From the IMG/VR virus record IMGVR_UViG_2061766007_000580: DNA of 59,798 nucleotides. One strand, given 5' to 3'. Under the pieces are notes generated by a model that saw only the letters and a program-made list of their open reading frames with translations, searched no databases and was not told the DNA's origin. This DNA is from an uncultured virus (IMG/VR IMGVR_UViG_2061766007_000580) (Duplodnaviria > Heunggongvirae > Uroviricota > Caudoviricetes). Of this stretch, positions 1 through 59,798 are shown in pieces (position 1 is the stretch's first letter; each line of letters starts with the position of its first letter). The position numbers and the translations under genes were made by a program.

Positions 1-174
1 TCCCTAAAAATTTCAGCGCGACATGTTTCGTTTTCGCAGGTTATATGCGCGTTTGGGCTTAATAAGCGCACAAATTAAGCGCACATGGGCGCAGGTTCGC
101 ATGTGCATGGGTGCGCACGCGGGCATATGCGGGTGTGCGCGGGAGGATTTTTTCGTTTTTCGGGGCCTGGTGGG

Positions 175-477
175 CTACAGGAACGCTTCCAGCTTCGATT
201 CGCTCGCTGACGTGCCCTTGAGCCAGCGCATTATGTGGCTGAACAGGGAAGATTGCTCCGCTACAAGCTGATGGCGCTGCCTGAAGAGCTTCCCTTCGCG
301 GTCGAGGTCGCGCACATCGTCTGATTCCATCGCCTTGAGGGTGGACTCCAGCTTGGCGATCCTGTCCTCGTTCCACTGGTACGTGCGGAACTCTGCGAGC
401 ACGAACTCGCGCTGTGCGGGGTCGAGTGACGCCGCCTGCTTCTCGATTGCGTCCTTCAGCTTAGCGTTGCGGCTCAT
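175..477 (-). CDS. Terminase small subunit-like protein (paralog A)
   Basis: 100 aa helical protein ending SKLEAFL, as in P27-type TerS; lies in the packaging operon; homologous to 6243-6542. Confidence 0.45.
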   Translation of the reverse strand: MSRNAKLKDAIEKQAASLDPAQREFVLAEFRTYQWNEDRIAKLESTLKAMESDDVRDLDREGKLFRQRHQLVAEQSSLFSHIMRWLKGTSASESKLEAFL

Positions 478-674
478 TCCAGCTCCTTCCCGCAGTCGGG
501 GCAGTAGTCGATCGGCACGCTCGTGGTGAGCGCTATGCCAAGGCGCGTGTTCTCGATGGTCACGTCCATGGTCCAGCTAGCATGCCCGTTTCGCACGAGA
601 GCCCACGTGGTTCGCTTCGACGGCCCTGGCATCTCGTATTTTTCTCGTTTTTCGCACAGCACGCATTCGGTCAT
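474..674 (-). CDS. Small Zn-binding hypothetical protein
   Basis: CxxC ... YCPDCG motifs; ATGA overlaps with both neighbours. Confidence 0.6.
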   Translation of the reverse strand: MTECVLCEKREKYEMPGPSKRTTWALVRNGHASWTMDVTIENTRLGIALTTSVPIDYCPDCGKELE

Positions 675-1024
675 TTCCTGATCACGTTCCCTTCCGAATC
701 GAAGCCGACCCTCGACGGCTCTCCATTGCGCTTGGCTTCGAACGTCCCGATTCCCAGCTGCTTGTGAACCTCCGTGTGGCATTCGTTGCACAGCGCCTTC
801 AGCCGTTCGGGGTTGAGCGAAACGTCCGGGTCGTCCATGTTCTCCACGGTCAGCGGGGTGGTGTGGTGGACCACGTTAGCCGGCTTCACGACACCGCGCT
901 CCAGACACCGCTCGCACAGCCCGTGGGCACGGTCCCACACGAACGACCTGACGTTCTCCCACGCCCTGCTATGGTAGAACCTGTGGGCGAACGGCGTGTT
1001 GCGCCACGTGGCTGTCTTGGTCAT
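671..1024 (-). CDS. HNH endonuclease (HK97 gp74-like packaging nuclease)
   Basis: FYHSRAW..R, LCERC, VHH, LKALCNECHTEVH motifs. Confidence 0.85.
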   Translation of the reverse strand: MTKTATWRNTPFAHRFYHSRAWENVRSFVWDRAHGLCERCLERGVVKPANVVHHTTPLTVENMDDPDVSLNPERLKALCNECHTEVHKQLGIGTFEAKRNGEPSRVGFDSEGNVIRK

Positions 1025-1353
1025 CACACGCTCCAATCTTTCAGGTGCTCTCTCCATGCTCGTTCGTCAAAATCGAGCATCGTCGCATCGATGTCAATGT
1101 CAACCTTGTCGACGACCGACATGCATGGCTCACCGCCGAACGAGTAGACCGTTGATACGAACGGGGAGGTCTCAATCCTGTTGACGAACATGTCGAAGCA
1201 ATGCTTGTGGCCATCGGCCTCGTACCAGCAGTGGCATATCCTGCCAGTAACGCCAGCAATCGCCTGTTCGGTGGTGTATGTGGGGGTTCCGCAGTACATG
1301 CAGTAGTGGCCCTCGATAGGCGCTCCACAGTTTTGGCAATTCGTTTCGCTCAT
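1024..1353 (-). CDS. Zn-ribbon hypothetical protein
   Basis: NCQNCGAP..CMYCGT. Confidence 0.6.
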   Translation of the reverse strand: MSETNCQNCGAPIEGHYCMYCGTPTYTTEQAIAGVTGRICHCWYEADGHKHCFDMFVNRIETSPFVSTVYSFGGEPCMSVVDKVDIDIDATMLDFDERAWREHLKDWSV

Positions 1354-1568
1354 CACAGGGCCCAATCGTCATCATCGTCTTCTTCGTCAACGATCGAGAA
1401 CAGCAGCAGCGAGACTTGCAGCATGAAGCACGCCATCGCCATCGTGAATGCCCCGCGTGGAAAATCGCCAACGACGAAAGCCTCGCCGCCAGCAACCGCG
1501 AACACGACGAACGCGATTACAACGAGCAGGTAAGCGAATTTGTCGTATTGTTCGTTCATCGATGCCAT
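1353..1568 (-). CDS. Small two-TM membrane protein
   Basis: Two hydrophobic segments and an acidic tail. Confidence 0.55.
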   Translation of the reverse strand: MASMNEQYDKFAYLLVVIAFVVFAVAGGEAFVVGDFPRGAFTMAMACFMLQVSLLLFSIVDEEDDDDDWAL

Positions 1569-1608
1569 ACCCCATCTACAGCGTGTACATGCTCGGCCCT
1601 GACCCTGC

Positions 1609-2589
1609 TCATGCCAGACTCCTTATCAGCTCGCAAATCCTCTCCGTGCTGTGACCGTCGCACGCGCCCGCGACCGTCCTGATGCAGTCCCGCTCGACCT
1701 TCGTCATGCCGAACTGCGCCGCAAGCCTGAGCGACATCACGAGCGCCTCCTCGTTGCGCTCCACGTCCAGCCACCTCGAGCTGTAGAAGTCGGGGTAGTC
1801 GTAGTACATGCCGCGGCCCGCCAGGTACTCGCGCATGTCATCGGTGAGCAGCACCACGGGCTTGCCCAGCATGTAGGCGTCGAACATGGTGGAGCTGTAG
1901 TCGGTGATGAGCACGTCGCATGTCCGCAGCAGCCCCCCGGTGGACTCCTCTGGAGGCAGCTCTACGACGCGCATGTTCTGCAAGTCGTGGCCGCGCGTCA
2001 GCTCGTGCTTCGTGAGGTAGTGGCGCTTGACGACCAGATACTCGCCGTCGTGTAACAGGCCGTCCACTTTCGCCCAGTCGATGCGCGGGAGGTGGCCCTT
2101 GTCGGCAGCGCCTCTGAACGTCGGGCAGTAGAGGTACATGCGCTCTATCGGCTCTCCGAACGCCGTCACGAACTGTTCTCCGTCCTCGAAGTAGGCATCT
2201 GTCCTCGCCATGCCCAGAGGCAGCACACGCTCCTCGGGCACTCCGAGCTGGCGCGACACTATCGGCACGCCAGCCTCGGACGTGGCTACGGCGTAGTCGA
2301 TCTGCGCGAGCGCCCTCTTGTCGACCCACGGGTGGTCGCCTTCGTCGAGCGCGTAGAGCTTGCCGCCAGTGAGGCCGTGGCCGAGGTTCACCGACTTGCA
2401 CCGTTTCTTGCCCTCGATGTAGACAGGAAGCGAATCGCACACGACCACGGAGAAACCGTCCCCCTCTGCTGTGCGCATGCCGTCAATCCCGCACCTGAAA
2501 GCCTTGCCGCCGTCGTACATCTCCCATATCCTCGTGGTGCTCTTGCACCTTCCCAGCGGGAGCGGCGATACGAAAAGGACCTCGCTCAT
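1609..2589 (-). CDS. CDP-glycerol glycerophosphotransferase-like protein (TagB/TagF family)
   Basis: HG, GMARTD, LYCPTFRG, KRH, DVLITDYSSTMFD, GKPV motifs; ATG at 2589 overlaps the upstream TGA. Confidence 0.85.
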   Translation of the reverse strand: MSEVLFVSPLPLGRCKSTTRIWEMYDGGKAFRCGIDGMRTAEGDGFSVVVCDSLPVYIEGKKRCKSVNLGHGLTGGKLYALDEGDHPWVDKRALAQIDYAVATSEAGVPIVSRQLGVPEERVLPLGMARTDAYFEDGEQFVTAFGEPIERMYLYCPTFRGAADKGHLPRIDWAKVDGLLHDGEYLVVKRHYLTKHELTRGHDLQNMRVVELPPEESTGGLLRTCDVLITDYSSTMFDAYMLGKPVVLLTDDMREYLAGRGMYYDYPDFYSSRWLDVERNEEALVMSLRLAAQFGMTKVERDCIRTVAGACDGHSTERICELIRSLA

Positions 2590-3209
2590 CTCGCCTCCAA
2601 TACCCTGTCGTGGATGTGGCCGCATCCCACGAGTGGGTCCACCCACACTTTCACGCCATATGCCGCACATTGCTGGCAGAACCAGTAGTCTTCGGAAAGG
2701 CCCTCGCCGTTCGCGTGCTCGACGAACTTGAACCACGGTCGGGCGAACCGCCTGAACACGTCAACCCTCAGCAACGCGCATGCCATGCCGTTGCCCTTGA
2801 CGAGAATCAACCCATCGTCGATGCTGCGAAGGAACGCCCTGTTGTAGCTGTCGTGGAACCCCTGGCTCGACGGCTTTATGACGCTCGTCGTGCCATTGTC
2901 GCTCGAGCCGCGCACAGCCCATCCGGTGCAAACTTCTACGTCGTGGGACAGCAGCCTAGCAAGCGCATCACGTGGCACGACCATGTCGGAATCCACCATC
3001 CACAGGTAGTCGACTCCCTCGTCAATCGCCGCCTGCGCCATGGCGTTCCTCGCGGTGGCAACAGCGTATCCGCTGACATGGTGGTGGACGACGCCGTCGA
3101 GCATCCCCTCAGATTCGGCGAAGTCTATGGCGTTGCCGATGCTCTCGGCTGTAGCCGCCTTCATGGAGCGGTCGAACGTCGGCACGCTCACCATCACTCT
3201 AGCGGGCAT
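2586..3209 (-). CDS. Glycosyltransferase, GT-A fold (GT2-like)
   Basis: ARN, DYLWMVDSD (DxD), GMACALL, SEDYWFC, CGH motifs. Confidence 0.8.
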   Translation of the reverse strand: MPARVMVSVPTFDRSMKAATAESIGNAIDFAESEGMLDGVVHHHVSGYAVATARNAMAQAAIDEGVDYLWMVDSDMVVPRDALARLLSHDVEVCTGWAVRGSSDNGTTSVIKPSSQGFHDSYNRAFLRSIDDGLILVKGNGMACALLRVDVFRRFARPWFKFVEHANGEGLSEDYWFCQQCAAYGVKVWVDPLVGCGHIHDRVLEAR

Positions 3210-3924
3210 TCTTCATCACCCGCTCTTCGTGGAGCTCAAGCACGCGGTCCCACGGCATCTCTCGGTACTTGACCGTGTACTTGTGGTTTTGCCAATACTT
3301 CGGCGGGTCACCTGCGAAGTGCCTAATCCTCACGACGTCTGTTGCGCCAGTGAACCTGTTGTAGTTGTACATGGGCGGCATACAGTGTATGTGACCCTGG
3401 CACAGGAAGCTGTACACGTCCTGCATGTCGTTGAGGTACGCATGCCAGTTTAACGCGTCCACGACCTCCTGGCATTTGCCGTCGCGCAGCTTGTCAAGGT
3501 TGTGGAGCATCACGCCGACGTTGCAGTAGACCATCCACTTGAACGTGATGACAGACTCCTGGCTCGCCGAGAAGTAGCAATCGTCAATGGGCATGTTCCA
3601 TACGTCAGATACGTCGCGTATGCATATCGCGTCGCAGTCGAGAGTCAGGATGCGGTCGAGGTCCTTGAATTCGTCCATGAGGGCGAGCGGCGCACGCATG
3701 AGCGCCATGTGCGATGCCCAGCCCTTGTAGTTCGGTGAATCTGGTGGGAAGAACTTCTGGTCCGACACGTCGACGACTTCGCAGAAGTCTGGCATCCAGT
3801 AATCGAAATCGCCTTCGGTGAACAGCCATACCTTGTCCACGTCGCTGTTGGCGATGAGCGATTTTGCCGCAGTCTGCATGTCGCCGTAGAGGTTCTTCGT
3901 GGCGGAGTAAAGAGCGTGTTTCAT
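3199..3924 (-). CDS. Glycosyltransferase family 8
   Basis: RILTLDCD, YCNVGVMLHNL, DMQD, YN, IRHFAG motifs typical of GT8. Confidence 0.85.
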   Translation of the reverse strand: MKHALYSATKNLYGDMQTAAKSLIANSDVDKVWLFTEGDFDYWMPDFCEVVDVSDQKFFPPDSPNYKGWASHMALMRAPLALMDEFKDLDRILTLDCDAICIRDVSDVWNMPIDDCYFSASQESVITFKWMVYCNVGVMLHNLDKLRDGKCQEVVDALNWHAYLNDMQDVYSFLCQGHIHCMPPMYNYNRFTGATDVVRIRHFAGDPPKYWQNHKYTVKYREMPWDRVLELHEERVMKNAR

Positions 3925-4163
3925 GAGTTCACCTTCCTGTGCAATTCGTCGACCAGGGCGAGCGCCTTGCGCACGACGCGCAGGTCGAACTTCTTACCTC
4001 CGCATTTGACGACCACGGTCCCGTACATCGGGTAGTCCAGGTCGATGAGCGTGTACTCGGGGGAGTGCGGCCAATTGTCGGCCTTGACCGTGTACGAACG
4101 GTACTCGCCGGCCGTCAGTCGCTGGGATGGGTGCAGCTCGAGCTGCGGGATTGTCGTGCTCAT
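3921..4163 (-). CDS. Hypothetical protein
   Basis: ATGA-coupled to TerL and to the GT8 gene. Confidence 0.55.
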   Translation of the reverse strand: MSTTIPQLELHPSQRLTAGEYRSYTVKADNWPHSPEYTLIDLDYPMYGTVVVKCGGKKFDLRVVRKALALVDELHRKVNS

Positions 4164-5866
4164 AGGATTGCCTCGTATTCGTCCTTGTGTCGAAGGTATG
4201 CGACGTACGCGCACAGCTCGGCCATGAAGCCGTCGATTCTGTTCACTGCCTTGCCAGCAACTTTGTGGAACTTGAGGTTGGCGTTGTTGTCGGTGGAGAC
4301 CTGGATGTTCATTCGGTTCCATTCGTTGATCGGGTTGTGTCCGTCCACGACGAAGTTCCCAGCGAACTGGGCACGGAGCTCCTTGCCAGGCATGGATAGT
4401 GTCTGCGGCCCCTGGCGAACCTTCTCGCAAAGCTCCTTGCCCGTGTACTGCACGAGCTGCTCCTCGTCGGTTCCGAGGATGTGCCACGGGTCGTAACCAA
4501 CTGCGAACGTGTACACGTCGTAGTTCTGCTTGATCTCCTCAAGCCATTCTACGAACACGCGTTTCGGAACCGTATTCCCAGGAACGGTGCGCAGCAGCCC
4601 ACGCTCCTCCCACTGGCGGTACGGTACGTCGTCCCGCTCGCGTCGGTATCCGCTGTTCCTGTTGAGCGCGTCCTCTGGGAGCCAGTACATCGACAGCTCG
4701 TAGATCTTCGGGTCTCCTCTGCGCATCATGAGGAACTTGCCGGCGCTCAGGTCGGTGGTGTCGCTCGCGTCGAAGCCGCCGATTCCGTAGCGGAACCCGA
4801 TATCCGAATACTTGCCCGATTCGGGAAGCTCCGGCAGTGGCTCCTCGTTGACCGCCTCCTCGAAGGACAGCCACGCGGCAGCACGCGATTCGGGCATGTT
4901 GAAGTCCTTCGTCATGAGGGTGGGCATGAACGACGGGTCCTGCATGCCCTTGTTGACGGCGTCCTTCATGTAGTCCCACGATTTGATGGTTCCGAGTCCT
5001 GGATTCGCCTTGATCCAGCAACTCTCGTCGGTCCACTCGCCCCGATCGTCAAGCTCGTAAATCACGGGCAGCATGCGGTCATCGTCTATCTTGCCGTCGA
5101 GGATTCCGCATGCATAGTCGTACTGGTCGTCGAACAGGTTCTCGCGCTCGAATCCGTTGGTCGTGATGGCGAGAATCATCGGCTGCTTTCGCGCCGACAT
5201 GGCCTGCTTGATGAGGTCGTACTGGTCTCGGTTCGTGCATGCGGCCATCTCGTCGAACAGGCAGAAGTGGACGTTCAGGCCGTCGAGGTGACGCGTCTGG
5301 TTGGTGAGCACCGTGATGTAGCCGTCGTTGCGGTCGAACATGATGCCGTCCTGGTCGCGGTCTGGCACGGTGCCCTTTCGTAGAGCGTTGCTGAGGTCCT
5401 TCGAGCGCTTGACCATCTTGAGGGCCACGCCGTACGCGAGCGACGCCTGGCTCTTGCTGGTCGCAACGTGGTAGTTCTGAGGTGCGCCCTCGCCATCGGC
5501 GACGAGCATGTACAGGCAAATCGCAGCGCCGGTGGTGGACTTCGAGTTCTTCCTCCCGAGCACCCAGAGCGTTTCCTGGAACTGCCTGCACCCATCGTCG
5601 TCGACGAACCCGAACATCATCTCGATGACTGCCTTCTGGAACGGTTCGAGAATCATCGGCTTGCCACTCTCCGGCAGCACGCAGAACGTCTCTATGAACT
5701 TGACCGGCCTCTCGGCCCTGTCGATGTCGAAGTGCCAGCGCTTGTAGCCGCTCGCGAAGCGGGGGAGCATCATTTCGGCGAGCTGCTTGATGCGCTTGCA
5801 CGCGACGATCCTCCCGTCGAGCACGTCCATCAGGTACTGCTCTGCCGCAGACACTACCCTAGACAT
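4160..5866 (-). CDS. terL: Terminase large subunit
   Basis: LEPFQK, Walker A-like GRKNSKST, Walker B CLFDE, ITT coupling motif, nuclease GFDAS...RIDG. Confidence 0.95.
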   Translation of the reverse strand: MSRVVSAAEQYLMDVLDGRIVACKRIKQLAEMMLPRFASGYKRWHFDIDRAERPVKFIETFCVLPESGKPMILEPFQKAVIEMMFGFVDDDGCRQFQETLWVLGRKNSKSTTGAAICLYMLVADGEGAPQNYHVATSKSQASLAYGVALKMVKRSKDLSNALRKGTVPDRDQDGIMFDRNDGYITVLTNQTRHLDGLNVHFCLFDEMAACTNRDQYDLIKQAMSARKQPMILAITTNGFERENLFDDQYDYACGILDGKIDDDRMLPVIYELDDRGEWTDESCWIKANPGLGTIKSWDYMKDAVNKGMQDPSFMPTLMTKDFNMPESRAAAWLSFEEAVNEEPLPELPESGKYSDIGFRYGIGGFDASDTTDLSAGKFLMMRRGDPKIYELSMYWLPEDALNRNSGYRRERDDVPYRQWEERGLLRTVPGNTVPKRVFVEWLEEIKQNYDVYTFAVGYDPWHILGTDEEQLVQYTGKELCEKVRQGPQTLSMPGKELRAQFAGNFVVDGHNPINEWNRMNIQVSTDNNANLKFHKVAGKAVNRIDGFMAELCAYVAYLRHKDEYEAIL

Positions 5867-6098
5867 CGTCAACTACGCCGTCCCTCGTCACCTTTGCGTA
5901 ATCGGAGTCCCTGTAAACGCTGTACCTGTCAGAGGCGTACTGCGTCAGGTCGCCGAACCCGATGCAACTGTCAGTGCCAGCTTTTACGAGGTACGGGCTC
6001 ATGCAGCATCCGCATCCCTCGATCGCGATTCCGTGCTTCTCGGTCAGCGCATCGAGGTCGGCGATGAATGCCGCAACCTTCTCTACATCAGCACTCAT
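5859..6098 (-). CDS. Hypothetical protein
   Basis: ORF overlapping the terL start; IEGCGCC motif. Confidence 0.55.
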   Translation of the reverse strand: MSADVEKVAAFIADLDALTEKHGIAIEGCGCCMSPYLVKAGTDSCIGFGDLTQYASDRYSVYRDSDYAKVTRDGVVDDV

Positions 6099-6246
6099 CG
6101 ACGCGCCTCTCCCAGTGCTTGCACTCGATCGCGAACGGGAAGTACAGCTGGAAGTCGTTCAGCTCGCACTCCACCATGCGGTTGCCCTGGGCGTCCTGCG
6201 TCTCGGCTGTCTTGTGTGCGCACGTGTCGCAGCTCTTGTCCTTCAT
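6088..6246 (-). CDS. Small Cys-rich hypothetical protein (MKDKSCDTCAH...)
   Basis: Read manually; fills the gap between neighbours, overlapping both. Confidence 0.5.
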   Translation of the reverse strand: MKDKSCDTCAHKTAETQDAQGNRMVECELNDFQLYFPFAIECKHWERRVDEC

Positions 6247-6542
6247 TTCCCCTCCTCGTCCCCGAGAATGTCGAACAGGTCTGCCGATATGCGGCTGTTC
6301 GCCGTGGACAGCTGGTTGTGCTCGTATGCGAGCGCAGACCTCTCGGCTTGCTTGAGCCTTATCTCGTCACGCGTTGCGGCTGGCATGGCGTTGAGCGCCG
6401 ACAGCCTGTCTGCTATCTCGGAAAGCCTCGACTTGTTCCGGCGATACTCGGCAAGCTGGGCGAGCACGATGGCCTTCTGGGCATCGTTCATGCTCGCGGC
6501 ACGTTGCTCGACTGCCTGCTCCAACTTGGTCTTCCTACCCAA
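6243..6542 (-). CDS. Terminase small subunit-like protein (paralog B)
   Basis: TTG start after AGGAG; first gene of the terL operon; aligns with 175-477. Confidence 0.5.
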   Translation of the reverse strand: MGRKTKLEQAVEQRAASMNDAQKAIVLAQLAEYRRNKSRLSEIADRLSALNAMPAATRDEIRLKQAERSALAYEHNQLSTANSRISADLFDILGDEEGK

Positions 6543-6602
6543 AGCCACTCCTAAGCGGTGCGAATCGGTGCCAAACGGGTGCATCGCCGCGCAAGCGGAA
6601 AA

Positions 6603-6654
6603 TGTCCCATTAATGGTACTACGATGTTTAAGCAAGTGTACCATGCATGGGACA
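6603..6654. promoter_or_regulatory. Palindromic divergent (late) promoter region
   Basis: TGTCCCAT-N2-ATGGTAC ... GTACCAT-N2-ATGGGACA; each arm contains a TACCAT -10-like hexamer facing outward. Confidence 0.6.
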
Positions 6655-6665
6655 GCTAGGCGGAT

Positions 6666-7994
6666 ATGGGAAAAATCCTCGACAAGATTCTCGGAAAAAA
6701 CAGGGGAAATGTGACCTCTGCGATGGAGACCGTTGGCAACAAGCCCTACACCGTTGGGTGGAGCGGGTCGATGTACCAGCAGGTTCTCGTGCGTAGCGTC
6801 ATAGAGCGCTTCGCCGTGGCCTGCTCCAAGCTCAAGCCCGAAATCCACGGGACGGCGCGTCCACGCGTCCGCAGGGCCATCGAAACGTCGCCGAACGAGT
6901 TCCAGACATGGCCGCAGTTCCTTTACCGGTGCGCCACGCTCTACATGAACAACACGACGGTGTGCGTCGTGCCCGAGTACAGGCGCGGCAGCGATGTGCA
7001 AATCGGGTTCTACCCAGTGCCGCTTTCGTTCGCTGAGGTGGTGGACCATGCAGGCGAGTTCTGGCTCCGCTGGCAGATGCCGGACGGCGAGCGCCGAGCG
7101 GTGGAGCTCAAGCGAGTTGCGATCGTCACCAGGTTCCAGTACCTGAGCGACTGGTTCGGCGACGGCAACATCCTCGCCAACACGCTCTCGATGCTCAAGG
7201 CGCAGGAGGATGCGCAGAAGCAGTCCATCAACGACTCGGCTCAACTTCGATTCATCGGCCAGCTCAATGGCCAGGTGCGCGAAGAGGACATGAAAAAGAA
7301 GCGCGACCGCTTCGCTCAAGACAATCTCAGCGGGGACAACGATACGCCGCTGATGGTGTACGACAACACGTTCTCCTCGATCGAGCAGCTGAAGGCGCAG
7401 AACTGGACCATCCCGGCAGACGAGATGGAGCGCATCGAGAACAACGTGTTCGACTACTTCGGAACGAACCGTCGCATCCTCCAGAACGCCTACGACGAGA
7501 ACGCGTGGGATGCGTTCTACGAGGGGTGCGTCGAGCCGTTCGCCCTGGCGCTGGGAGAGGCGTTGACCAAGGCCACGTTCACCATGCGCGAACGTCCAGC
7601 CAACCGCATCATGTTCAGCTCGAACAGGCTCGAGTACGCGTCGGCTGCGTCCAAGCGAAACATGAACAAGGACATGACCGACCGCGCACTGATGATGGTC
7701 AACGAGGGCCGCGAGATCCTGGGGCTCCCGCCCGTGGACGGCGGCGACGTGTTCATCCTGCGCGGCGAATACAAGGTGGGCCACTCGCTCGAGGAGATAT
7801 TCCAGGCCCAGAAGGCCAAGGCCGACGCGGACGCGAGGGGCGGTGGCCGCACAGCGACGTCCGAGAGCGACATGGACGGCGCCGACTCCGATTCAATCCG
7901 CCCGGACTCCGAGGGCTACGGAAGCCCCGGCGATACAGACACGGGCGACGTCACATCAGTAAACCAGGACCGCTGGTCCGAGAACGCTTCGTAG
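6666..7994 (+). CDS. Portal protein (HK97-like)
   Basis: PN..QT..QF, MMVNEGREILGLPPVDGGD motifs; precedes protease and capsid. Confidence 0.92.
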   Translation: MGKILDKILGKNRGNVTSAMETVGNKPYTVGWSGSMYQQVLVRSVIERFAVACSKLKPEIHGTARPRVRRAIETSPNEFQTWPQFLYRCATLYMNNTTVCVVPEYRRGSDVQIGFYPVPLSFAEVVDHAGEFWLRWQMPDGERRAVELKRVAIVTRFQYLSDWFGDGNILANTLSMLKAQEDAQKQSINDSAQLRFIGQLNGQVREEDMKKKRDRFAQDNLSGDNDTPLMVYDNTFSSIEQLKAQNWTIPADEMERIENNVFDYFGTNRRILQNAYDENAWDAFYEGCVEPFALALGEALTKATFTMRERPANRIMFSSNRLEYASAASKRNMNKDMTDRALMMVNEGREILGLPPVDGGDVFILRGEYKVGHSLEEIFQAQKAKADADARGGGRTATSESDMDGADSDSIRPDSEGYGSPGDTDTGDVTSVNQDRWSENAS

Positions 7995-8006
7995 GAAGGA
8001 GCGGTC

Positions 8007-8696
8007 ATGCCAGTGAAAACAGACGAGCGCCAGTACCGCACGATGAGCACGCCGCTCTTCGTGCCCGACTTCGGCGACGATGACGACCGCGACATGGACG
8101 AGGTCGTCGACCAGATCAAGAACAGGTTCGGCAGCGACTACTACGTGGAAGGTTACGCCACAACGTTCGAGGACCCGTACCTGCTGTTCGAGGACCCGTA
8201 CGACGGCTGGAAGTACGTCGAGATCATCGACCGCCACGCGCTTGACGACGCCGACCTGTCCGACGTCATCTTCCAGTACGACCACGAGGGCCGCGTGTAC
8301 GCACGAAACACGAACAACACGCTCTACTTCGAGCCGAACGACCACGGAATGTTCATCGCGGCGGACCTCGGAAAGACGAGCCTCGCACGTCAGATGTACG
8401 AGGACATCCAGGCCGGCAACGTGCGCAGCATGAGCTGGGCTTTCGTGCCGTCCGAGGAGGTCCACACCGAGGACCGCGAGAACAGGGTCCACACGTGCCG
8501 CATCACGCGGGTGAAGAAGGTCTATGACGTTTCAGCCGTGTCGTACCCGGCAGACCCGAACACAGAGATAAGCGCCAGGAACCTCGTTAACGGAGAGATC
8601 GAGGCCAGGAAGCTGCGGGAGTCGCAGCAGCGCGAAAAACTTGACCGCATGCGCAGGGAGCTTGCGCTGAAGGCCAAGAGGCTTGCAATCCGTTAA
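8007..8696 (+). CDS. Prohead protease (HK97 family)
   Basis: VEGYATTF, QYDH, SMSWAF, YDVSAVSYPA. Confidence 0.92.
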   Translation: MPVKTDERQYRTMSTPLFVPDFGDDDDRDMDEVVDQIKNRFGSDYYVEGYATTFEDPYLLFEDPYDGWKYVEIIDRHALDDADLSDVIFQYDHEGRVYARNTNNTLYFEPNDHGMFIAADLGKTSLARQMYEDIQAGNVRSMSWAFVPSEEVHTEDRENRVHTCRITRVKKVYDVSAVSYPADPNTEISARNLVNGEIEARKLRESQQREKLDRMRRELALKAKRLAIR

Positions 8697-8712
8697 AGAG
8701 GAAGGGGAAGCA

Positions 8713-10017
8713 ATGGACTTCACCGCCATGGACGCTCGGGCTTACCGAAGCCTGAACTCCGACCAGTACCAGGAGCGCCGCTCGATGGTGCTGTCCCTGG
8801 CAGAGCAGCTGCCCGAGGACGCCACCGAGGAGCAGATCCGCTCGATCGACGACGAAATGGGCATCATCAAGTCCGAGGACTCCCGCCGCGACGCCATGAT
8901 TGAGCTGCGCAACCACAAGGCAGCTGAGGTCATCGGCGGTGCCGGCAAGGTTGTCGGCACGACCGAGACCCGCAAGGCCCCCGGCATCATCCACCGCGAC
9001 AGCACTCTCGGTGGGCGCACGTGGGCCGCTATGCAGGAGCGCGGCTACCACCGCGACGAGCGCTTCCAGCTGCCCAACATCGCGTTCCGCGCATACAACG
9101 ACAACCAGACCGTCGCAGAGCTCGCAGGCGAGAACAGCCCGAACTACTACGATGACGCACTGACCCAGGTCGACCTCGAGATCAAGGAAGGCTACCGCCG
9201 ACCGCTGACCATCTGGGACCTGTTCAACCACGAGACCACCGAGAAGGATTCCGTCGCGTGGTACACCGAAGGCGCGTTCGACGGCTCCGCAGCGATGACC
9301 GCCGAAGCGGGCGCGTTCGCGCAAATCCACGTCAACGATCCCGTGCGTCATTCCGCAGAGCTCAAGAAGGTCACCGCCATCTGGAAGCAGTCCGACGAGA
9401 TCCTGTCCGATGCTCCGCGCTTCGTGAGCCACGTCAACGCACGTGCTGGCTACAACCTCGACATCGTGGTCGAGGACCAGCTGGTCGCAGGCGACGGCAC
9501 CGGCAACAACATCACCGGCATCACGAACGCCACCGGCATCGGCACCGCGACCGCATCCGCATACAACATGGCATTCATCGAGTCCCTGCTCGACGAGCGC
9601 ACCAAGATCCGCAAGGCCACCCCGAACTTCATGGTCGACACGCTGCTCCTGGCTGACGAGGACTACGACACCCTCATGAAGCTGAAGAACAACGCCGACC
9701 AGTACGTGCTTGGTGGGCCCACCGGGTTCGTGTACGGCAACGGCGTGACCATCGGTCGCAACCTGTGGAACACCATCACCATCGTCCCGACTCCCGCTCT
9801 GACCAGCGGCACGTCCATCCTCGGCGCGTTCAAGGCAGGTGCTACCGTCTACGAGCACGTCACCGGGCGCCGCTTCGACGTCGGCTACGACGGCACTGAC
9901 TTCAGCCACGGGCTCGTCAGCTTCCGCGCATACCAGCGCTTCGTGCTGGCTGTCGAGTACCCCGCCGCGTTCACCAAGTACACGGTCGGCTCCGGCCAGT
10001 CCGGCCTCTCGGTATAA
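8713..10017 (+). CDS. Major capsid protein (HK97 fold)
   Basis: N-terminal delta-domain coil, AE.G, S.EIL.D, GDGTG.NITGI; C-terminus SGQSGLSV. Confidence 0.92.
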   Translation: MDFTAMDARAYRSLNSDQYQERRSMVLSLAEQLPEDATEEQIRSIDDEMGIIKSEDSRRDAMIELRNHKAAEVIGGAGKVVGTTETRKAPGIIHRDSTLGGRTWAAMQERGYHRDERFQLPNIAFRAYNDNQTVAELAGENSPNYYDDALTQVDLEIKEGYRRPLTIWDLFNHETTEKDSVAWYTEGAFDGSAAMTAEAGAFAQIHVNDPVRHSAELKKVTAIWKQSDEILSDAPRFVSHVNARAGYNLDIVVEDQLVAGDGTGNNITGITNATGIGTATASAYNMAFIESLLDERTKIRKATPNFMVDTLLLADEDYDTLMKLKNNADQYVLGGPTGFVYGNGVTIGRNLWNTITIVPTPALTSGTSILGAFKAGATVYEHVTGRRFDVGYDGTDFSHGLVSFRAYQRFVLAVEYPAAFTKYTVGSGQSGLSV

Positions 10018-10029
10018 GGGAGGTGCGAG

Positions 10030-10254
10030 ATGAACGTCATCGTGCTGGAAGACTTCCATGACAACCTGAAGGGCGTTGACCGCAAGCGCGGCGAGCAGTT
10101 CGTCGTGTCACGCGAGCGCTTCGATGAGATCAACGCTTTCGGCCAGGAACGCATCGGCAGGCCGATTGTCGGCGACGTCGAAGAGAAGCAGGCACCCGAA
10201 GAGCGTGCAGCAAAGGCGAAGGCCAAGAGGCGCACGGCAAGGAAGGCGCAGTAG
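10030..10254 (+). CDS. Small head-associated hypothetical protein
   Basis: RBS GGGAGG; position after the capsid gene. Confidence 0.65.
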   Translation: MNVIVLEDFHDNLKGVDRKRGEQFVVSRERFDEINAFGQERIGRPIVGDVEEKQAPEERAAKAKAKRRTARKAQ

Positions 10255-10596
10255 ATGGCGCTACTCGACGACATAAAGCTGTCCCTGCGGGTGTCAACCT
10301 CAGCCCTCGACGCAGAGGTCGAGATGCTCGCGGGAGCGGCCATCCGCGACATGGAGCGGGTGGGCGTCGACCCAGAGCTTCTGNNNNNNNNNNNNNNNNN
10401 NNNNNNNNNNNNCGACGCGACCGAAAACTGCGAAGACGCGTTCGTCAAGACCGCAATAACCGCCTACTGCAAGGCTCACTTCGGCTACGACAACATGGAG
10501 GCGAAACGCTTCGACGAGGCGTACAGGCGCATCGTGTGCGACCTGCTCAACTCCTCCGACAACATCGCAGCCGACGAGCCGGAAGGCGGCGAGTGA
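10255..10596 (+). CDS. Head-tail connector (gp6-like)
   Basis: LLDDIKLSLRV...AITAYCKAHFG; spans an N-gap. Confidence 0.8.
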   Translation: MALLDDIKLSLRVSTSALDAEVEMLAGAAIRDMERVGVDPELLXXXXXXXXXXDATENCEDAFVKTAITAYCKAHFGYDNMEAKRFDEAYRRIVCDLLNSSDNIAADEPEGGE

Positions 10597-10970
10597 TGCG
10601 CTGGAACGAGACGTGCGTGCTTGTCGATTCCGAATACGCATTGGACGGCGAGGGCGTTCCCGCGCCGACCGAGACGAGGACCGAGGTGTTCTGCAACCCG
10701 AGGACGGTCGGAGCGTCCACGTGGTCGTCCATGTACGAGATCGGCATATCGTGCGACGCCCAGATCCAGGTGCGGACATGCGACTACGACGAGCAGCGCG
10801 ACGTCGAGTACCGAGGCGAGCGCTACTCGGTCGAGGTCATGCAGGAACGCGGAGACTACACGGTGCTGACGCTGCGCCACCAGAAATCGGACCCAGAAGC
10901 AGAGCATTCGGGTGGCGAGCAGCCAGAACCGGATGACGGCAATGGCGAGGGCGGTGAAAACGATGGGTAG
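10596..10970 (+). CDS. Head-closure / head-tail adaptor
   Basis: EVFCN..V...Y..G, DY...VEYRGERYSV; synteny. Confidence 0.75.
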   Translation: MRWNETCVLVDSEYALDGEGVPAPTETRTEVFCNPRTVGASTWSSMYEIGISCDAQIQVRTCDYDEQRDVEYRGERYSVEVMQERGDYTVLTLRHQKSDPEAEHSGGEQPEPDDGNGEGGENDG

Positions 10971-11373
10971 ACACGATATCACGTGCGACATCGACGGCTT
11001 CGCACGCGGCATCGAGGAGCTCATCGGTGACATCCCCGAGAAGTGCTCCGACAAGGTCGGCAAGGCAACCGAGAGGGCTACGCGAAAGGGCGTCAAGACC
11101 GTCAAGTCGTATGCGAGCGAAGGCGGCATCCACGAGTGGTCAGACCGCTACGTAGGAGGGTTCTCAAGCCACGTCGACCGGAAGGGCCCGGTCACAATCG
11201 GCCAGATCGGCAACAAGAAAGAACCTGGACTTGTCCACCTGCTCGAAAAGGGGCACGCAACGCCGGCAGGAAGGCGCACTAGGTCATTCCCGCACATGGC
11301 ACCAGCGTTCGACGAGATAACGCAGGACTTCATCGAGATGGCGAGCAGGGCGATCGAGGAGGCTATCTCATGA
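10963..11373 (+). CDS. HK97 gp10-like tail completion protein
   Basis: LVHLLEKGHA...PHMAPA motif. Confidence 0.8.
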   Translation: MGRHDITCDIDGFARGIEELIGDIPEKCSDKVGKATERATRKGVKTVKSYASEGGIHEWSDRYVGGFSSHVDRKGPVTIGQIGNKKEPGLVHLLEKGHATPAGRRTRSFPHMAPAFDEITQDFIEMASRAIEEAIS

Positions 11374-11705
11374 GCCACGCAGATGTATACGAGGCGGTAT
11401 CGGCACACGTGCCGTGCTGCCACATGGAGTGGCCCGATGACAAGGCGCCTCCCGTTCCGTTCGCCTGCTACCTGCTCGACTACGACAAGCCGATATGCGC
11501 AGGCGACGTGCAGATAGCCGTCAGGCGCAAGTGGATCGTCGAGCTTTACGAGCGGTTCCGCGACGCGGAGCTGGAAAAGGCCCTCGGAGACTCGCTGAGG
11601 GACGCGTTCGGAGCGGTTCGCCGCGACGAGCAATGGATAGAAAACGACAACCTGCTCCAGGTCGTCTACACGTTTTACCAGATAGAAGGAGACTTCGATG
11701 GCTAG
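11370..11705 (+). CDS. Putative tail terminator
   Basis: Synteny; P.PF..Y, VELY, WIE.D.L.QVVY. Confidence 0.65.
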   Translation: MSHADVYEAVSAHVPCCHMEWPDDKAPPVPFACYLLDYDKPICAGDVQIAVRRKWIVELYERFRDAELEKALGDSLRDAFGAVRRDEQWIENDNLLQVVYTFYQIEGDFDG

Positions 11706-12291
11706 AAAAGTACGTTACGGACTAAAGAACACCAAGTACGCGGTGTGGAATTCCCAGTCGAGCACATACGGCTCGTTGAAGGACCTGCCCTGGGCGGTCG
11801 CCCTTAGCCTCTCCACCGAGGGTGGCGACGGATCCGACTTCTACGCGGACGATGGCATCTGCTTCTCGTTCGCTGGCACCAACGGCGGTTATTCCGGCGA
11901 TTTCGAGCTTTCCAACGTGCCGGACACGGTGCGCGTGGACTTGCTCGGCGAAGTGGTCGACTCTGCAACCGGCGTCCAGTTCGAGACTACCGACGTCGAG
12001 CCGCCCGAGTTCGCGCTCATTACCGAGATGCAGACCGACGAGGGCCCGATCGGCTTCGTGTTCTACAACTGCAAGGCATCCCGTCCCGAGATCAGCGCAA
12101 ACACCAAGAACGACAACCCGGACGTGGACACGGAATCCTTGCCGCTTCGCATCGCATCCCGCAAGTTCACCTACGGCGGCGTCCAGAAGAGCTTCGTGCA
12201 GGGCCACATCCAGAAGACTGATTCGAACACGGCCCAATACACTGCGTTCTTCGCATCGGTCGTCACCCCCGGTGGCGGTCTGAGCGTATAA
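11698..12291 (+). CDS. Major tail (tube) protein, phi13-like
   Basis: KVRYGLKN, FYADD, NGGYSGDFE, FYNCKASRP; C-terminus GGGLSV. Confidence 0.88.
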   Translation: MARKVRYGLKNTKYAVWNSQSSTYGSLKDLPWAVALSLSTEGGDGSDFYADDGICFSFAGTNGGYSGDFELSNVPDTVRVDLLGEVVDSATGVQFETTDVEPPEFALITEMQTDEGPIGFVFYNCKASRPEISANTKNDNPDVDTESLPLRIASRKFTYGGVQKSFVQGHIQKTDSNTAQYTAFFASVVTPGGGLSV

Positions 12292-12303
12292 GGGGGATAG
12301 CTG

Positions 12304-12687
12304 ATGTTCACGTTCGAAGCCAACGGCAAGACCTACACCGCCAAGGTGACGTTCTACACGGCCCACCTCTACGAGATGGAGTTCCGCAGTGACCTCATCC
12401 GTGACCTGTTCGGGGTGCAGACAGCCGAGCAGCCGCTCGAGATCGAGCGGACGGGCGACGGAGAGGACGATTACCGCATCGTGAAGATCGACTTCACGAA
12501 GGTCAACTGGACGGTCGTTGCGAAGGCGCTGTGGGCCGCAGTCAAGACCGCGAACAAGGCTACTCAGAACTACGCCGAGTGGATGCAGTCCATGTCAGGC
12601 GTGAACCTCTGGACGATCCAAGACCAGCTTGGTGAGGAAATCTCCGATTGCTTCTTTCGTGCCGAAGCTCCCGAAGAGGACGCATAG
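12304..12687 (+). CDS. Tail assembly chaperone (gpG-like)
   Basis: Located between the major tail and tape measure genes. Confidence 0.7.
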   Translation: MFTFEANGKTYTAKVTFYTAHLYEMEFRSDLIRDLFGVQTAEQPLEIERTGDGEDDYRIVKIDFTKVNWTVVAKALWAAVKTANKATQNYAEWMQSMSGVNLWTIQDQLGEEISDCFFRAEAPEEDA

Positions 12688-12901
12688 GGAAAAGAGGCAG
12701 AAGAGGGAGAGCTCGGTCAGGCCGTACACGCAGATGCTGCTGTGCGGCCTGGAAGCCGGGCTGACCGTGCAGGACATGCACGACATGAAGTACACGCACC
12801 TTATGCAGACTCTCTACGAATGGGAGGACATGCACGACGCCGACGTCGAAGAGGTGGTCGAGGCCACCTCCGCCGACGTCATGGCGCTTACGAGACTATG
12901 A
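12656..12901 (+). CDS. Tail assembly chaperone extension (gpT-like), probably reached by frameshift
   Basis: Overlapping ORF in the +1 frame that ends just before the tape measure gene. Confidence 0.55.
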   Translation, partial: FVPKLPKRTHREKRQKRESSVRPYTQMLLCGLEAGLTVQDMHDMKYTHLMQTLYEWEDMHDADVEEVVEATSADVMALTRL

Positions 12902-12911
12902 GGAGGAGAGG

Positions 12912-15900
12912 ATGGCCGACGCCTTCAGGGGACTGACGCTGAGGATCGGGGCGGACGCACGCCCGCTGCAATCGGCCATCAGCTCCATCTCACGTTCAGC
13001 CAGCCAGGCACAGAAGCAGATGAACCGGCTGAACAGGGCCCTTAACTTCGACAGCTCGAACGTCAAGATGATGCAGTCCCGCATCGACATCATGGGCGAC
13101 AAGGCGCTGCACTCCGCACGTGCGTTCGCGAAGATAAAGACCGCGATGCAGCAGGCTGCGACGGAGGCGAAGGGCTTCAACTTGAGGAAACTCGCAGCCG
13201 AGACGAAGGACGCGTATTCCGCGACCGAGAAGCTGCGTTCAGAATACAACCACGTCGACGCCGAGTTGCAGCACATCTACGACGCCGTCGGGCGCGTCGT
13301 GATGCGCAACAAGGAGCTTGCGAATGCGGACCACGCGCTTGCGAAGGTGGCATCGAGGCTCAAGGGATTCGACAACAACGACGCCCTTGATTACGTACGC
13401 AAGCTCAGGGAGCAGATGAAGGGCACCGGCGATGCCGCTGACAAGGCGAAGGCGGACTTCCAGGAGCTCGCGAAGGGCGCTCACCTCCAGGATGCCATCG
13501 ACCACGTCAAGAAGCTCAAGGAGCAGATGAAGGGTCTCGGGCCTGAAGCTGAAGCAGCTGCGCGAGAATTCAAGCGGCTTGCCGAGATAGCATCAAGCGA
13601 GTCTGGCATAAACGAGCTGTTCGGCCAGAACAAGGGCGACGTCGAAGCGCTCCTCCGCACGCTCGACAGGCTCATCGAACGGCACAAGAAGCTACACGCC
13701 GAGTACGACAAGATGGACACCGTCCAAGGCTACAGGGCGATGGCTATGGAAGCTCGGATCTACGAGGCGGAGGTCAGGCAGGCAGCTTCCGAGACGGCCC
13801 GCCTGAACACGGAGATGCATGCGCTCGGCACAAAGGGCGCATTGGCTAAGAGCGTCAACAGCATAAAGCTGCTCGGAAACGCGAGCGAGAAGGCCGTTGC
13901 GAGCGCCCACCAGATGATAGACGCATACAGGAAACTGCCAAGCAGCCTAGACAGGTTGAAGGCAAAGGCGTCTGCCGTAGCAGAAGCCGAATCCACCCTT
14001 GCCGCGAGAATGGGTGAAATCAAAAACGCCTTGAGGAAACTCGAATCAGACCCGGCGTTCGACAAAATCGCCGCCTCAACCGAGAACGCGTATGTCAGCG
14101 CTATGAAGGTTGAGAACGAGTACACGGAACTCGCGACGAAGCTGAGCCTTGCTGAGGGGAAAGCGGATGAGCTCAGGACGGAGCTGAACACGCTCAACGA
14201 TTCTGGTGCAGACAGGCTCAACTCAGACTACAGGAAAGTCGAGCGTCAACTTGCGAAGGCGGAAGAAGAAGCACGTCAGCTGAAGACCCAGCTGAACTCT
14301 CTCGACGACGCACATGCAACAGCAGCCCTCATCGTCGAGCAGAGGAGGCTGCGCGACGAGTTGGCGAAGACCGAGATTCAAGTCAAACAGCTCCACACGC
14401 AGATGAGCAAGTTGACGGCACTCGGAACGGCAGGAAAATCGCTCAGGCAGTTCGGTTTCGGAATGTACGCGTCGCTGACTCCAGCCGCGATGATGGCAGG
14501 CAACTACATGATCCAGTCGGCTGAAGACATAGACGCCGCATATCGGAACATGCGCAAGACAGTGAACGGGACAGAAGAAGATTTCCAGACGCTTCTAGAC
14601 CACGCAATCGAGTTCTCCACGACCCACGTGACGACAGCCGACCAGATTCTCGAGATCGAGGCGATGGGTGGACAGCTCGGCATCCAGGTGGAGAACCTCG
14701 AATCGTTCGCGCACACGGTATCGAACCTCGACATCGCCACGAACATGGAAGCCGATGACATAGCAACCCAGCTCGGCAAGATGGCCACGGTCATGGGCAT
14801 GAGCGAGGATCAGTACGACAACTTCGGCGACGCTCTCGTCCGCCTCGGCAACAACATGCCGGTCATGGAGGGTGACATCATGAACCTCACGAACAGGTTC
14901 ATGGGCATGGCGAAGGTCGTTGGCATGTCACCAGACCAGATGCTCGGATGGGCGGCGGCTGCGTCGGCTACAGGTCAGAAGGCGGAAGCGGCTGGCTCTT
15001 CGATGCTGCGTTTCATATCCAACATGGAGACGGCTGTCAACAGCAGCGACGAAGACCTCCAGAAGTGGGCAGACGTCACCGGCATGAGCGTCAGCGAGTT
15101 CAGGAAGGCATTCGACGAGGACGCCAGCGGGACGATGTACAGGTTCGTCCAGGGTCTCGGCGAGATTCAGAAGAGCGGCGGGTCCGTGAACCAGGTGCTC
15201 AGGGACCTCGGCATCAACAACGTCCGCGACAAGCAGCTCCTCGAAGGTCTCGCGAACCAGATGGCAAACGGATCTGGAGAGGCGAACACGCTCGCCCAGT
15301 GCCTCCAGTTGTCGAGCGACGCGTGGAACGGATTAAGCACGAACCTCGGCAACGGCAAGGTCGAGCTCGCAGGCGACGCCATGCGAGAGGCCGACAAGAA
15401 ATCGGAGGGCTTCTCCGGTTCGATTCAAAAACTCCGCAACCAGGCAGCAGCCCTCATGAACGAACTTGCAGAGGGCGCTCAGCCAATCGTTAACAGCATG
15501 GCTAACACGTTCGGCAAGATAGCTAAGGTTTTCCAGGGGTCGAATACGGAGCTGAAGACGTTCGCCATAAAAATGGGGTTGCTCACGGCGGCTGTCGGAC
15601 CGGCAACCGTTGGCNNNNNNNNNNCTGAGGCAATCGGCAACAAGGCAGTTCCAGCCGTCAAGAACGGGCTCGTAAGGCTCGGTACAGCCGTATTGGACCT
15701 CGGCGGCAGAATGGGGCGTGGCGGCACTGCTGTCATGAAGCTCGGAAATGCTATAGGTCTGCTCGGCACCGTGTCGATGGGGCCTGCAATAGCTGGCATT
15801 GCTGCGGTTGGCGGCGCCATATACCTCGCAGTGGGAGCCGTTCAGGCGTACATCAACCACGTCAACAGGATGAAGAAGGCAACAGAGGGCACAGCTGATG

Positions 15901-48066: not shown

Positions 48067-48100
48067 AGAAGGCCCCGCTCAGGCGGGGCTTTTTTATTTT
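48067..48100. terminator. Terminator between convergent operons (possibly bidirectional)
   Basis: AAGAA-GGCCCCGC-TCAG-GCGGGGCT-TTTTT. Confidence 0.75.
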
Positions 48101-49299: not shown

Positions 49300-49331
49300 G
49301 GCATCGCTCCTCTCGTGTTTCATGTTTTTCG

Positions 49332-59778: not shown

Positions 59779-59798
59779 GCTCTCTCCCTTCAACGTGA

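What the first reader, a model, noticed from the sequence alone, without database searches (positions are those of the whole stretch)
1609..12291. Candidate virion glycosylation system with a glycerophosphotransferase and a shared C-terminal acceptor tag (GLSV)
Seen: GT8, GT2 and TagB/TagF-like genes are translationally coupled downstream of terL, so they are probably late-expressed. The major capsid ends ..SGQSGLSV* (10003-10017, GGC CTC TCG GTA) and the major tail tube ends ..GGGLSV* (12277-12291, GGT CTG AGC GTA). The peptide is identical but the Gly, Leu and Ser codons differ, which points to protein-level selection. Known: some mycobacteriophages O-glycosylate the C-termini of capsid and tail-tube subunits using phage glycosyltransferases. 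Inference: GLSV is an acceptor sequon, and the TagF-like enzyme adds glycerol- or polyol-phosphate, giving a teichoic-acid-like coat on the virion. I do not know of this being described.
Basis: partly seen in the sequence, partly recalled or inferred. Interest (0 to 1): 0.88.

Follow-up and report, generated by a model that had tools for sequence, protein, structure and literature searches.

The report
Phage sugar-phosphate coat on Gly-X-Ser tails
This uncultured gut phage ends its capsid and tail-tube proteins in short glycine-X-serine tails that, among related phages, occur where its sugar-transferring genes occur, so it probably coats its own particle with sugars and perhaps with teichoic-acid-type sugar-alcohol phosphate, a chemistry not yet shown for any phage particle we could find described.

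Summary
Observation confirmed: GT8, a GT-A (GT2-like) gene and a TagF-like gene are translationally coupled behind terL; capsid and tail tube both end GLSV. The tag is not GLSV as such. It is a run of collagen-like (G/A)-X-(S/T) triplets, consensus ending G-L-S-A, appended beyond the HK97 fold. In the window's capsid family and a second one, 17 of 17 genomes with head-linked glycosyltransferases have the capsid tail and 0 of 23 without. In a third lineage the tail sits on a small head protein (20 of 20 versus 0 of 32). All seven well-supported independent tree pairs agree. The GT-A model resembles protein O-glycosyltransferases (COLGALT1, LH3, STIV A197) and also sits beside (GXT)n tail fibres. 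The TagF-like enzyme keeps both catalytic histidines, was seen only with the other GTs and is optional. Best reading (0.78): virion O-glycosylation at G-X-S. Polyol-phosphate capping is about 0.5; a true polymer about 0.2. Nothing is shown chemically; two counter-examples exist. The enzymes are not close homologues of the Che8/Corndog set, and the serine is penultimate: a new variant of a known kind. The scan noted similar systems before on other DNA.

The parts
4160..5872 (-). Terminase large subunit; leads the coupled run that holds the glycosyltransferases
   Evidence: PF03354, PF20441
3921..4163 (-). 80-aa ORF between terL and GT8; not part of the system
   Evidence: Overlaps both neighbours; found in only a few relatives, including GT-less L016
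3199..3924 (-). GT8 glycosyltransferase (LgtC/GlyE-like, 241 aa, no transmembrane segment); likely chain extender
   Evidence: PF01501 41.2 bits, cut-off 24.3; profile hits 5gvv and LgtC 1g9r; D96-x-D98, N135-x-G-V, Q168-D169, H202 invariant in 14 rows; best 19-residue hydropathy 1.08
2586..3209 (-). Minimal GT-A enzyme (207 aa), A197/COLGALT1-like; best candidate for the protein O-glycosylation step
   Evidence: AF2 model pLDDT 91.7; top Foldseek hits COLGALT1, STIV A197, LH3, mimivirus R699; D73-S-D75, E173-D174, H198 invariant in 13 rows; D174 aligns with A197 D151
1609..2589 (-). TagF-like CDP-polyol phosphotransferase (326 aa, catalytic GT-B domain only); optional capping enzyme
   Evidence: PF04464 111.9 bits; TagF, TarL, Cps3D hits by profile and fold; H71 and H190 (TagF H444, H584) in 29 of 29 full-length phage homologues
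6555..6665 (.). Divergent intergenic region between the terS/terL/GT run and the portal-head-tail run; TGTMCC…GGKACA-type elements recur in relatives
   Evidence: seen by eye in relatives; no sigma-70 consensus promoter in 1-13000
8713..10017 (+). HK97-fold major capsid protein
   Evidence: PF05065, TIGR01554; profile position 428 aligns with HK97 residue 384 of 385
9988..10017 (+). Capsid C-terminal tail GSGQSGLSV*, with two G-X-S triplets (GQS, GLS): predicted acceptor
11698..12291 (+). Major tail tube protein
   Evidence: phrog_88 E 4e-36, TIGR01603
12271..12291 (+). Tail-tube C-terminal tail GGGLSV*, with one G-X-S triplet: predicted acceptor

Best explanation
The phage glycosylates its own virion. 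Late in infection the three soluble enzymes are made together with terminase (coupling shown in sequence; timing inferred). The minimal GT-A enzyme recognises the flexible (G/A)-X-Ser tail appended beyond the folded core of capsid and tail-tube subunits and adds a first sugar to serine, from a host nucleotide-sugar (inferred from fold, gene position and co-occurrence; that it rather than GT8 primes is about 0.65). GT8 extends the glycan (inferred from family chemistry). In this phage and a subset of relatives the TagF-like enzyme transfers glycerol- or ribitol-phosphate from a host CDP-polyol onto the glycan (about 0.5), more likely as a cap than as a long chain. The result is a sugar coat, possibly anionic, on head and tail. 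Its benefit is unknown: protease or antibody shielding, altered adsorption to mucus, feed particles or non-host cells are guesses.
For: Capsid tail with head- or terminase-linked GTs: 17 of 17 versus 0 of 23 among 40 distinct capsids of two lineages, 4 changes on the tree, 4 of 4 independent pairs concordant. Third, unrelated lineage: the small head protein (phrog_909) ends in (GXT)n in 20 of 20 rows with the GT-A gene and 0 of 32 without; 3 starred pairs, 5 on the best tree. Record level there: close GT-A in 23 of 23 tagged and 0 of 26 untagged records, GT8 in 9 of 23 and 0 of 26 (4 of 4 complete tagged, 0 of 6 untagged at 90% or more), TagF-like in 7 of 23 and 0 of 26. In the window's lineage the GTs lie 5-9 kb from the tagged genes on the other strand, so adjacency does not explain the link. 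Ser(-2) uses both TCN (33) and AGY (12) codons in 45 tagged ends. Ser/Thr upstream of the last four residues is in triplet phase 49 times and out 11 times; shuffle mean 23.6. GT genes often sit right behind the tagged gene (L065, L066, L156, L161, L197, L222, L223). In three untagged, GT8-less records, one complete, the GT-A gene follows a (GXT)n collagen tail fibre; the other 21 records of that set had neither. Fold neighbours are protein O-glycosyltransferases. C. difficile SgtA O-GlcNAcylates Thr or Ser in collagen-repeat peptides (PMC7157674, passages).
Against: No chemical or expression evidence. L141 (complete record G041) has GT8 and GT-A inside the head module, yet its capsid ends …FVKITK and its tube …KLGIS. 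L065 and L069 have the GTs but an untagged, divergent tail tube. L130 has Ser/Thr tails and a GT8-TagF-like fusion but no GT-A match in a 56% complete record, so the priming enzyme is not settled. Each tree alone gives too few independent pairs for significance (p 0.125 and 0.25). The tag rule was set after seeing the data. Most GT-less records are fragments. GT-less relatives do carry 1-4-residue Ser/Thr ends (ATS, TASS, TKAS, TEASA). In lineages B and C tail and GT gene are adjacent and could travel as one piece of DNA. The fibre plus GT-A cassette may be a single event.
Confidence: 0.78

Rival explanations
1. Same target, different order of steps: GT8 primes the serine (as glycogenin-type GT8 enzymes act on protein), or the TagF-like enzyme puts polyol-phosphate directly on serine.
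For: L130 has tails with a GT8-TagF-like fusion and no GT-A match. GT8 directly follows the tagged gene in L156, L161, L139 and L223. All 4 complete tagged lineage-C records hold GT8. L128 and L135 carry GT8 with a different GT2 and capsids ending GS.
Against: The nearest solved GT8s are LgtC and 5gvv, recalled as sugar-to-sugar extenders. Complete GT8-less G001 keeps GT-A beside a (GXT)n fibre. The TagF-like gene is missing from many tagged phages and was not seen without a GT8 or GT-A in the same locus (31 distinct hits).
Confidence: 0.25
2. The enzymes modify host wall polymers (teichoic acid or capsule) to block superinfection, as prophage TarP or gtr cassettes do, and the tails are unrelated.
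For: The phage looks temperate (tyrosine recombinase at 29897-29163). The two Atopobiaceae MAGs that hold related capsids have TagF-family genes of their own. Wall-polymer modification can be done by soluble cytoplasmic enzymes (recalled).
Against: The genes are coupled to terL, about 25 kb from the integrase, and in other lineages lie between head genes. No transmembrane segment in any of the three. The small membrane ORF after the TagF-like gene had no match in any fetched locus. Phage TagF-like protein is only about 26% identical to the longest-matching host one and its nearest Atlas clusters are 86-100% viral where taxa are recorded. It does not explain why tails on three different virion proteins track the GTs.
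Confidence: 0.1
3. The shared ending is a by-product: stop codon overlapping the next ribosome-binding site, plus 9-nt slippage repeats, co-inherited with neighbouring genes.
For: GTATAAGGG is shared after both genes. The TAAGGAGG context is general in the family. Triplet repeats can grow by slippage.
Against: The same stop and RBS context occurs in untagged relatives. Ser(-2) is kept across TCN and AGY codons. The tails vanish together with GT genes 5-9 kb away.
Confidence: 0.05
4. The enzymes hypermodify phage DNA before packaging.
For: Position next to terminase; GT-B and GT-A folds occur among DNA glycosyltransferases (recalled); a C5 methylase lies at 49323-48094.
Against: The sequence and fold neighbours are protein and glycan transferases. 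It does not explain the tails. I did not search for base-hydroxymethylase genes.
Confidence: 0.04

Closest known systems
Mycobacteriophage virion O-glycosylation (Che8 gp108-110; Corndog gp35-38; Freeman et al. 2023, Cell Host Microbe)
   Same: Phage-encoded GT cluster near HNH/terminase or head genes; capsid and tail tube share a Gly/Ser ending. The paper was not held; I saw only passages citing it in PMC11256854, PMC11600133 and PMC12582341. That the glycan sits on the C-terminal serine is recalled.
   Different: Che8 capsid and tube end …TGS and …DGS; Corndog gp41 and gp49 (taken as capsid and tube by position) end …VGS and …GDS: Ser is last. Here Ser is penultimate within G-X-S triplets. 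Their enzymes are GT25, GT2 and methyltransferase types; no hit to the GT8 or TagF-like profiles, best E 0.0047 for Che8 gp109 against the GT-A profile in an 11-protein set. No TagF-like enzyme among the seven genes scanned.
STIV A197 glycosyltransferase
   Same: Minimal stand-alone viral GT-A of about 200 aa; only sequence hit in the PDB and fourth fold hit; D151 aligns with D174. Proposed to glycosylate the STIV capsid (PMC10551542, passages).
   Different: Archaeal virus, double jelly-roll capsid; donor and acceptor undetermined there; 16% identity.
Collagen O-glycosyltransferases COLGALT1, LH3, mimivirus R699; C. difficile SgtA/BclA3
   Same: Protein O-glycosylation of Gly-X-Y repeats. SgtA adds beta-GlcNAc to Thr, and to Ser, in peptides of the GPT-rich collagen region and is encoded next to its substrate (PMC7157674, passages).
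   Different: COLGALT1 and LH3 act on hydroxylysine (entry titles; recalled). Homology to SgtA was not tested.
TagF/TarL/TagB teichoic-acid and Cps3D capsule CDP-polyol phosphotransferases
   Same: GT-B fold, TM about 0.7 to TagF; both histidines kept. Their roles, H444 as base and H584 binding pyrophosphate, are from PMC11666461 (passages), which also describes TagF-like domains that transfer Gro3P onto a sugar.
   Different: 326 aa, starting at the catalytic domain; far below the TarF, TarB and TarL cut-offs; phage-encoded in late gene runs; predicted acceptor is a virion glycan, not a lipid-linked one.

Membership tests
Mycobacteriophage-type virion O-glycosylation | Phage-encoded glycosyltransferases in the late/assembly region | tested here: met
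Mycobacteriophage-type virion O-glycosylation | Capsid and tail tube end in a terminal serine | tested here: not met
   Ser is at -2 in 36 of 36 distinct tagged ends; last residue in Che8 and Corndog
Mycobacteriophage-type virion O-glycosylation | Enzymes homologous to Che8 gp108-110 or Corndog gp36-38 | tested here: not met
   No significant profile match; weakest hint E 0.0047 for gp109; different Pfam families
Mycobacteriophage-type virion O-glycosylation | O-linked glycan detected on virion subunits and lost in GT mutants | not testable with these tools
   Needs virions and mass spectrometry
TagF-like CDP-polyol phosphotransferases (PF04464) | Profile score over cut-off and GT-B fold | tested here: met
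   111.9 versus 22.1 bits; Foldseek E 1e-14 to TagF
TagF-like CDP-polyol phosphotransferases (PF04464) | Two catalytic histidines (H444, H584) and DYSS motif | tested here: met
   H71, H190, D230, S232 in 29 of 29
Wall teichoic acid primase/polymerase proper (TagB, TagF, TarF, TarL) | Equivalog score; N-terminal membrane-binding region (feature recalled) | tested here: not met
   57, 35 and 26 bits against cut-offs 1000, 550, 500; model starts with the first beta-strand at residue 3
Wall teichoic acid primase/polymerase proper (TagB, TagF, TarF, TarL) | CDP-glycerol donor and processive polymer formation | not testable with these tools
   Glycerol versus ribitol, cap versus chain cannot be read from these data
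GT8 | PF01501 over cut-off; DxD, NxGV, QD and C-terminal His | tested here: met
GT2 (PF00535) | Score over the curated cut-off | tested here: not met
   20.2 versus 23.3 bits; better described as an A197/Anp1-like GT-A
Prophage surface-conversion cassettes (gtrABC type) | Membrane flippase and polytopic transferase, in a lysogeny-expressed unit (features recalled) | tested here: not met
   No transmembrane segment in the three enzymes; coupled to terL

The most novel reading that the evidence does not exclude
A family of gut siphoviruses uses a portable collagen-like G-X-S/T sequon, grafted onto whichever virion protein is to be coated (capsid, tail tube, small head protein or fibre), read by a phage A197/COLGALT1-like O-glycosyltransferase. 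In a subset including this phage, a soluble TagF-like enzyme then builds polyol-phosphate on the glycan, so the virion wears a teichoic-acid-like anionic coat that mimics its host's wall.
Probability: 0.4. Interest if true: 0.85.

Novelty: new variant of a known kind. Interest (0 to 1): 0.68.

Why it matters
In the passages I read, virion glycosylation of tailed phages is attributed to a few mycobacteriophages. This case extends it, by comparative evidence, to gut phages with a different enzyme set and names a short sequon that can be tested with synthetic peptides and three small soluble enzymes. A polyol-phosphate cap would be wall-polymer chemistry on a virus particle; searches for it found no paper in the held library (subscription journals are mostly missing). 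A small enzyme that glycosylates a G-X-S/T tag would also be a useful labelling tool.

Tried and rejected
GLSV as the exact sequon: rejected. RBS artefact: rejected as the main cause. 'GT-A alone suffices in lineage C' and 'TagF-like occurs without GT8': first read from 20-kb loci, withdrawn after whole-record searches found GT8 further away in all 4 complete tagged records. A blind scan of all ORF ends for Ser/Thr tails did not separate GT8 loci from GT-less loci (14 of 26 versus 11 of 26; spurious ORFs dominate). tblastn of GT8 against GenBank phages: no match; TagF-like: 8 weak, unannotated records. No whole genome is held for the window. No RNA holder listed. No consensus promoter in 1-13000; terminators at chance level. 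No solved structure for the tail tube. TagD search in the two host MAGs: one match under the cut-off in 1 of 2, so donor supply is only suggested. Look-up of earlier findings by the GT-A sequence: nothing. The BclA/GXT paper search returned none. No complex prediction was run. Freeman 2023 and its supplements, which I could not see, may list further phages and enzyme families and bear on the novelty claim.
Full report
1. What is there. The window is a temperate siphovirus-type genome. Its closest capsid relatives in the genome collection lie in two Atopobiaceae MAGs titled roe deer and sheep jejunum (70% identity over the whole capsid and 96% over its C-terminal half). The portal-to-tail genes run on the plus strand. 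terL and the three transferases run on the minus strand from a divergent intergenic region at 6555-6665, a layout shared by most close relatives. The order is terL, an 80-aa ORF, GT8, a GT-A enzyme and a TagF-like enzyme, each overlapping the next. The TagF-like gene starts at ATG 2589, where the family alignment begins, not at the GTG 2736 listed by the ORF finder. Capsid and tail tube end GLSV at the stated coordinates with different Gly, Leu and Ser codons; no other of 468 ORFs ends LSV.

2. What the tag is. Among relatives, 36 distinct capsid and tube extensions end [LVI]-S-[AV]. Ser is at -2 in all 36; Ser/Thr is at -5 in 29 of 35 and at -8 in 17 of 25, each preceded two places earlier mostly by Gly or Ala. 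Upstream of the last four residues, Ser/Thr is in triplet phase 49 times and out of phase 11 times; shuffles give a mean of 23.6. The rows are related, so that p-value is not one of independent events. Ala is the usual last residue (33 of 36). Ser(-2) is written with TCN 33 times and AGY 12 times in 45 ends, while the TAAGGAGG-like context is shared with untagged relatives. The HK97 fold ends at about profile position 428, so the tail is an appendage. That it faces outward is inferred from recalled cases of C-terminal display on capsids and tubes, not tested.

3. Does it track the enzymes? Lineage A is the window's capsid family; lineage B was found through GT8 and sampled with the L156 capsid. 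I scored 40 distinct capsids whose GT slot could be seen: tail (5 or more residues with [GA]-X-[ST], a rule set after inspection) in 17 of 17 with head- or terminase-linked GTs and 0 of 23 without; four changes on the capsid-core tree, four independent pairs, all concordant, p 0.125. Left out were duplicates and contigs too short to show the slot, tagged (such as L001, L003, L015, L027, L045-L049, L053, L186) and untagged (L009, L011, L025, L068). L008, L195 and L199 were scored GT-less although they hold a fibre-linked GT-A gene. L084, L191, L192, L209 and L061 were checked in the fetched locus only. Tail tubes follow: 8 of 8 GT-positive lineage-A genomes with the homologous tube are tagged, and none of L008, L014, L061, L185; 4 of 4 in lineage B. 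Lineage C has an unrelated capsid (phrog_29) with no tail; there the small head protein upstream ends in (GXT)n. Of 82 loci, 52 were scored (25 duplicates, 3 without that gene and 2 missed by the anchor pattern were dropped; those 2, L148 and L241, are tagged and GT-positive): 20 of 20 versus 0 of 32, three starred pairs, five on the best tree. Pooling the seven starred pairs gives a two-sided sign test of about 0.016 (my arithmetic). Whole-record searches of 49 lineage-C records gave close GT-A in 23 of 23 tagged and 0 of 26 untagged (one untagged record has a distant paralogue), GT8 in 9 of 23 and 0 of 26, TagF-like in 7 of 23 and 0 of 26. Further GT8-bearing lineages also end capsid or tube in Ser/Thr-rich tails (L120, L123, L125, L130, L139, L153, L163, L164, L171, L173), but without GT-less controls.

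4. Against. L141, a complete 27.5-kb record, has GT8 and GT-A among its head genes and no tail on capsid or tube. L065 and L069 tag only the capsid. L130 is tagged with no GT-A match in a 56% complete record. GT-less relatives have short Ser/Thr ends of up to four residues on the capsid. In lineages B and C the tail and GT gene are neighbours and may move together; in lineage A they are not.

5. The enzymes. The GT-A model (pLDDT 91.7) is closest to COLGALT1, STIV A197, LH3 and mimivirus R699. Its invariant E173-D174 aligns with A197 E150-D151, whose D151E change delays replication (PMC10551542, passages). Of 24 records picked as GT-less at the capsid locus (one, G007, is a short tagged fragment), three hold the GT-A gene, each directly behind a tail fibre with about 100 or more G-X-Y triplets, mostly Thr at Y, and only those three match a (GXT)4 pattern. 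G033 has a second GT-A copy in the same place. This makes GT-A the likeliest reader of G-X-S/T; SgtA acting on BclA3 collagen-repeat peptides is a precedent (PMC7157674, passages). GT8 resembles LgtC and 5gvv. The TagF-like protein keeps both histidines in 29 of 29 homologues (roles from PMC11666461, passages), begins directly with the catalytic domain, belongs to mostly viral clusters, occurs in 0-2 copies per genome, and was found in none of the 24 and none of the 26 records above. Both host MAGs carry TagF-family genes, and one a TagD-like match under the cut-off, so a CDP-polyol donor is plausible.

6. Mechanism, shown and inferred. Shown: gene order and coupling, family and fold assignments, intact catalytic motifs, triplet nature of the tail, co-occurrence. 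Inferred: late expression, surface exposure, Ser O-glycosylation by GT-A, extension by GT8, polyol-phosphate transfer. Unknown: sugars, polyol, chain length, benefit.

7. Comparison and novelty. It works like mycobacteriophage virion glycosylation but fails two membership features tested here: terminal Ser and enzyme homology. Freeman et al. 2023 was not held; I rely on citing passages and recall. Four searches for this chemistry or sequon on phage virions found no paper. Earlier notes of this scan describe similar systems in other genomes, including a Gly-x-Thr tail on a head decoration protein with a TagF-like enzyme (e1-5797412); I had noted the triplet reading before seeing that, and these notes are not independent support. 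Verdict: new variant of a known kind, interest 0.68.

Noticed in passing
window 175-6665: Packaging genes are split off and inverted relative to the portal operon, with two similar small proteins (6554-6243 and 477-175, terS-like by position only) and HNH downstream of terL; the layout recurs in most close relatives.
   Followed up: partly
window 6555-6665: Divergent intergenic region with recurring TGTMCC-N-GGKACA and AAGTGTACCA elements in GT-positive and GT-less relatives; candidate late-activator sites.
   Followed up: partly
window 56667-56716 and 59749-59798: Perfect 50-nt inverted repeat beside an N gap (56717-56871) and the window end: scaffolding artefact or an invertible 3-kb segment.
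   Followed up: no
L214:8228-12621, L215:7690-12397, L216:2759-7484, L224:5169-7654, L129:3566-11268: Collagen-like (GXT)n tail fibre followed directly by the GT-A gene (GT8 then GT-A in L129): candidate glycosylated phage fibres.
   Followed up: partly
L152, L158, L160, L174 (lineage C records): Larger GT islands with fused GT2-GT8 and double GT8 proteins upstream of terS.
   Followed up: no
L012:4562-7411 and L195:2885-5734: terL reading frames of about 950 aa, far longer than the 570-aa homologue; possibly an intein.
   Followed up: no
window 20161-23162: Repeats of 50-117 nt, some in 69-nt steps, shared between two tail genes.
   Followed up: no
window 48094-49323: C5 cytosine DNA methylase (PF00145).
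   Followed up: no
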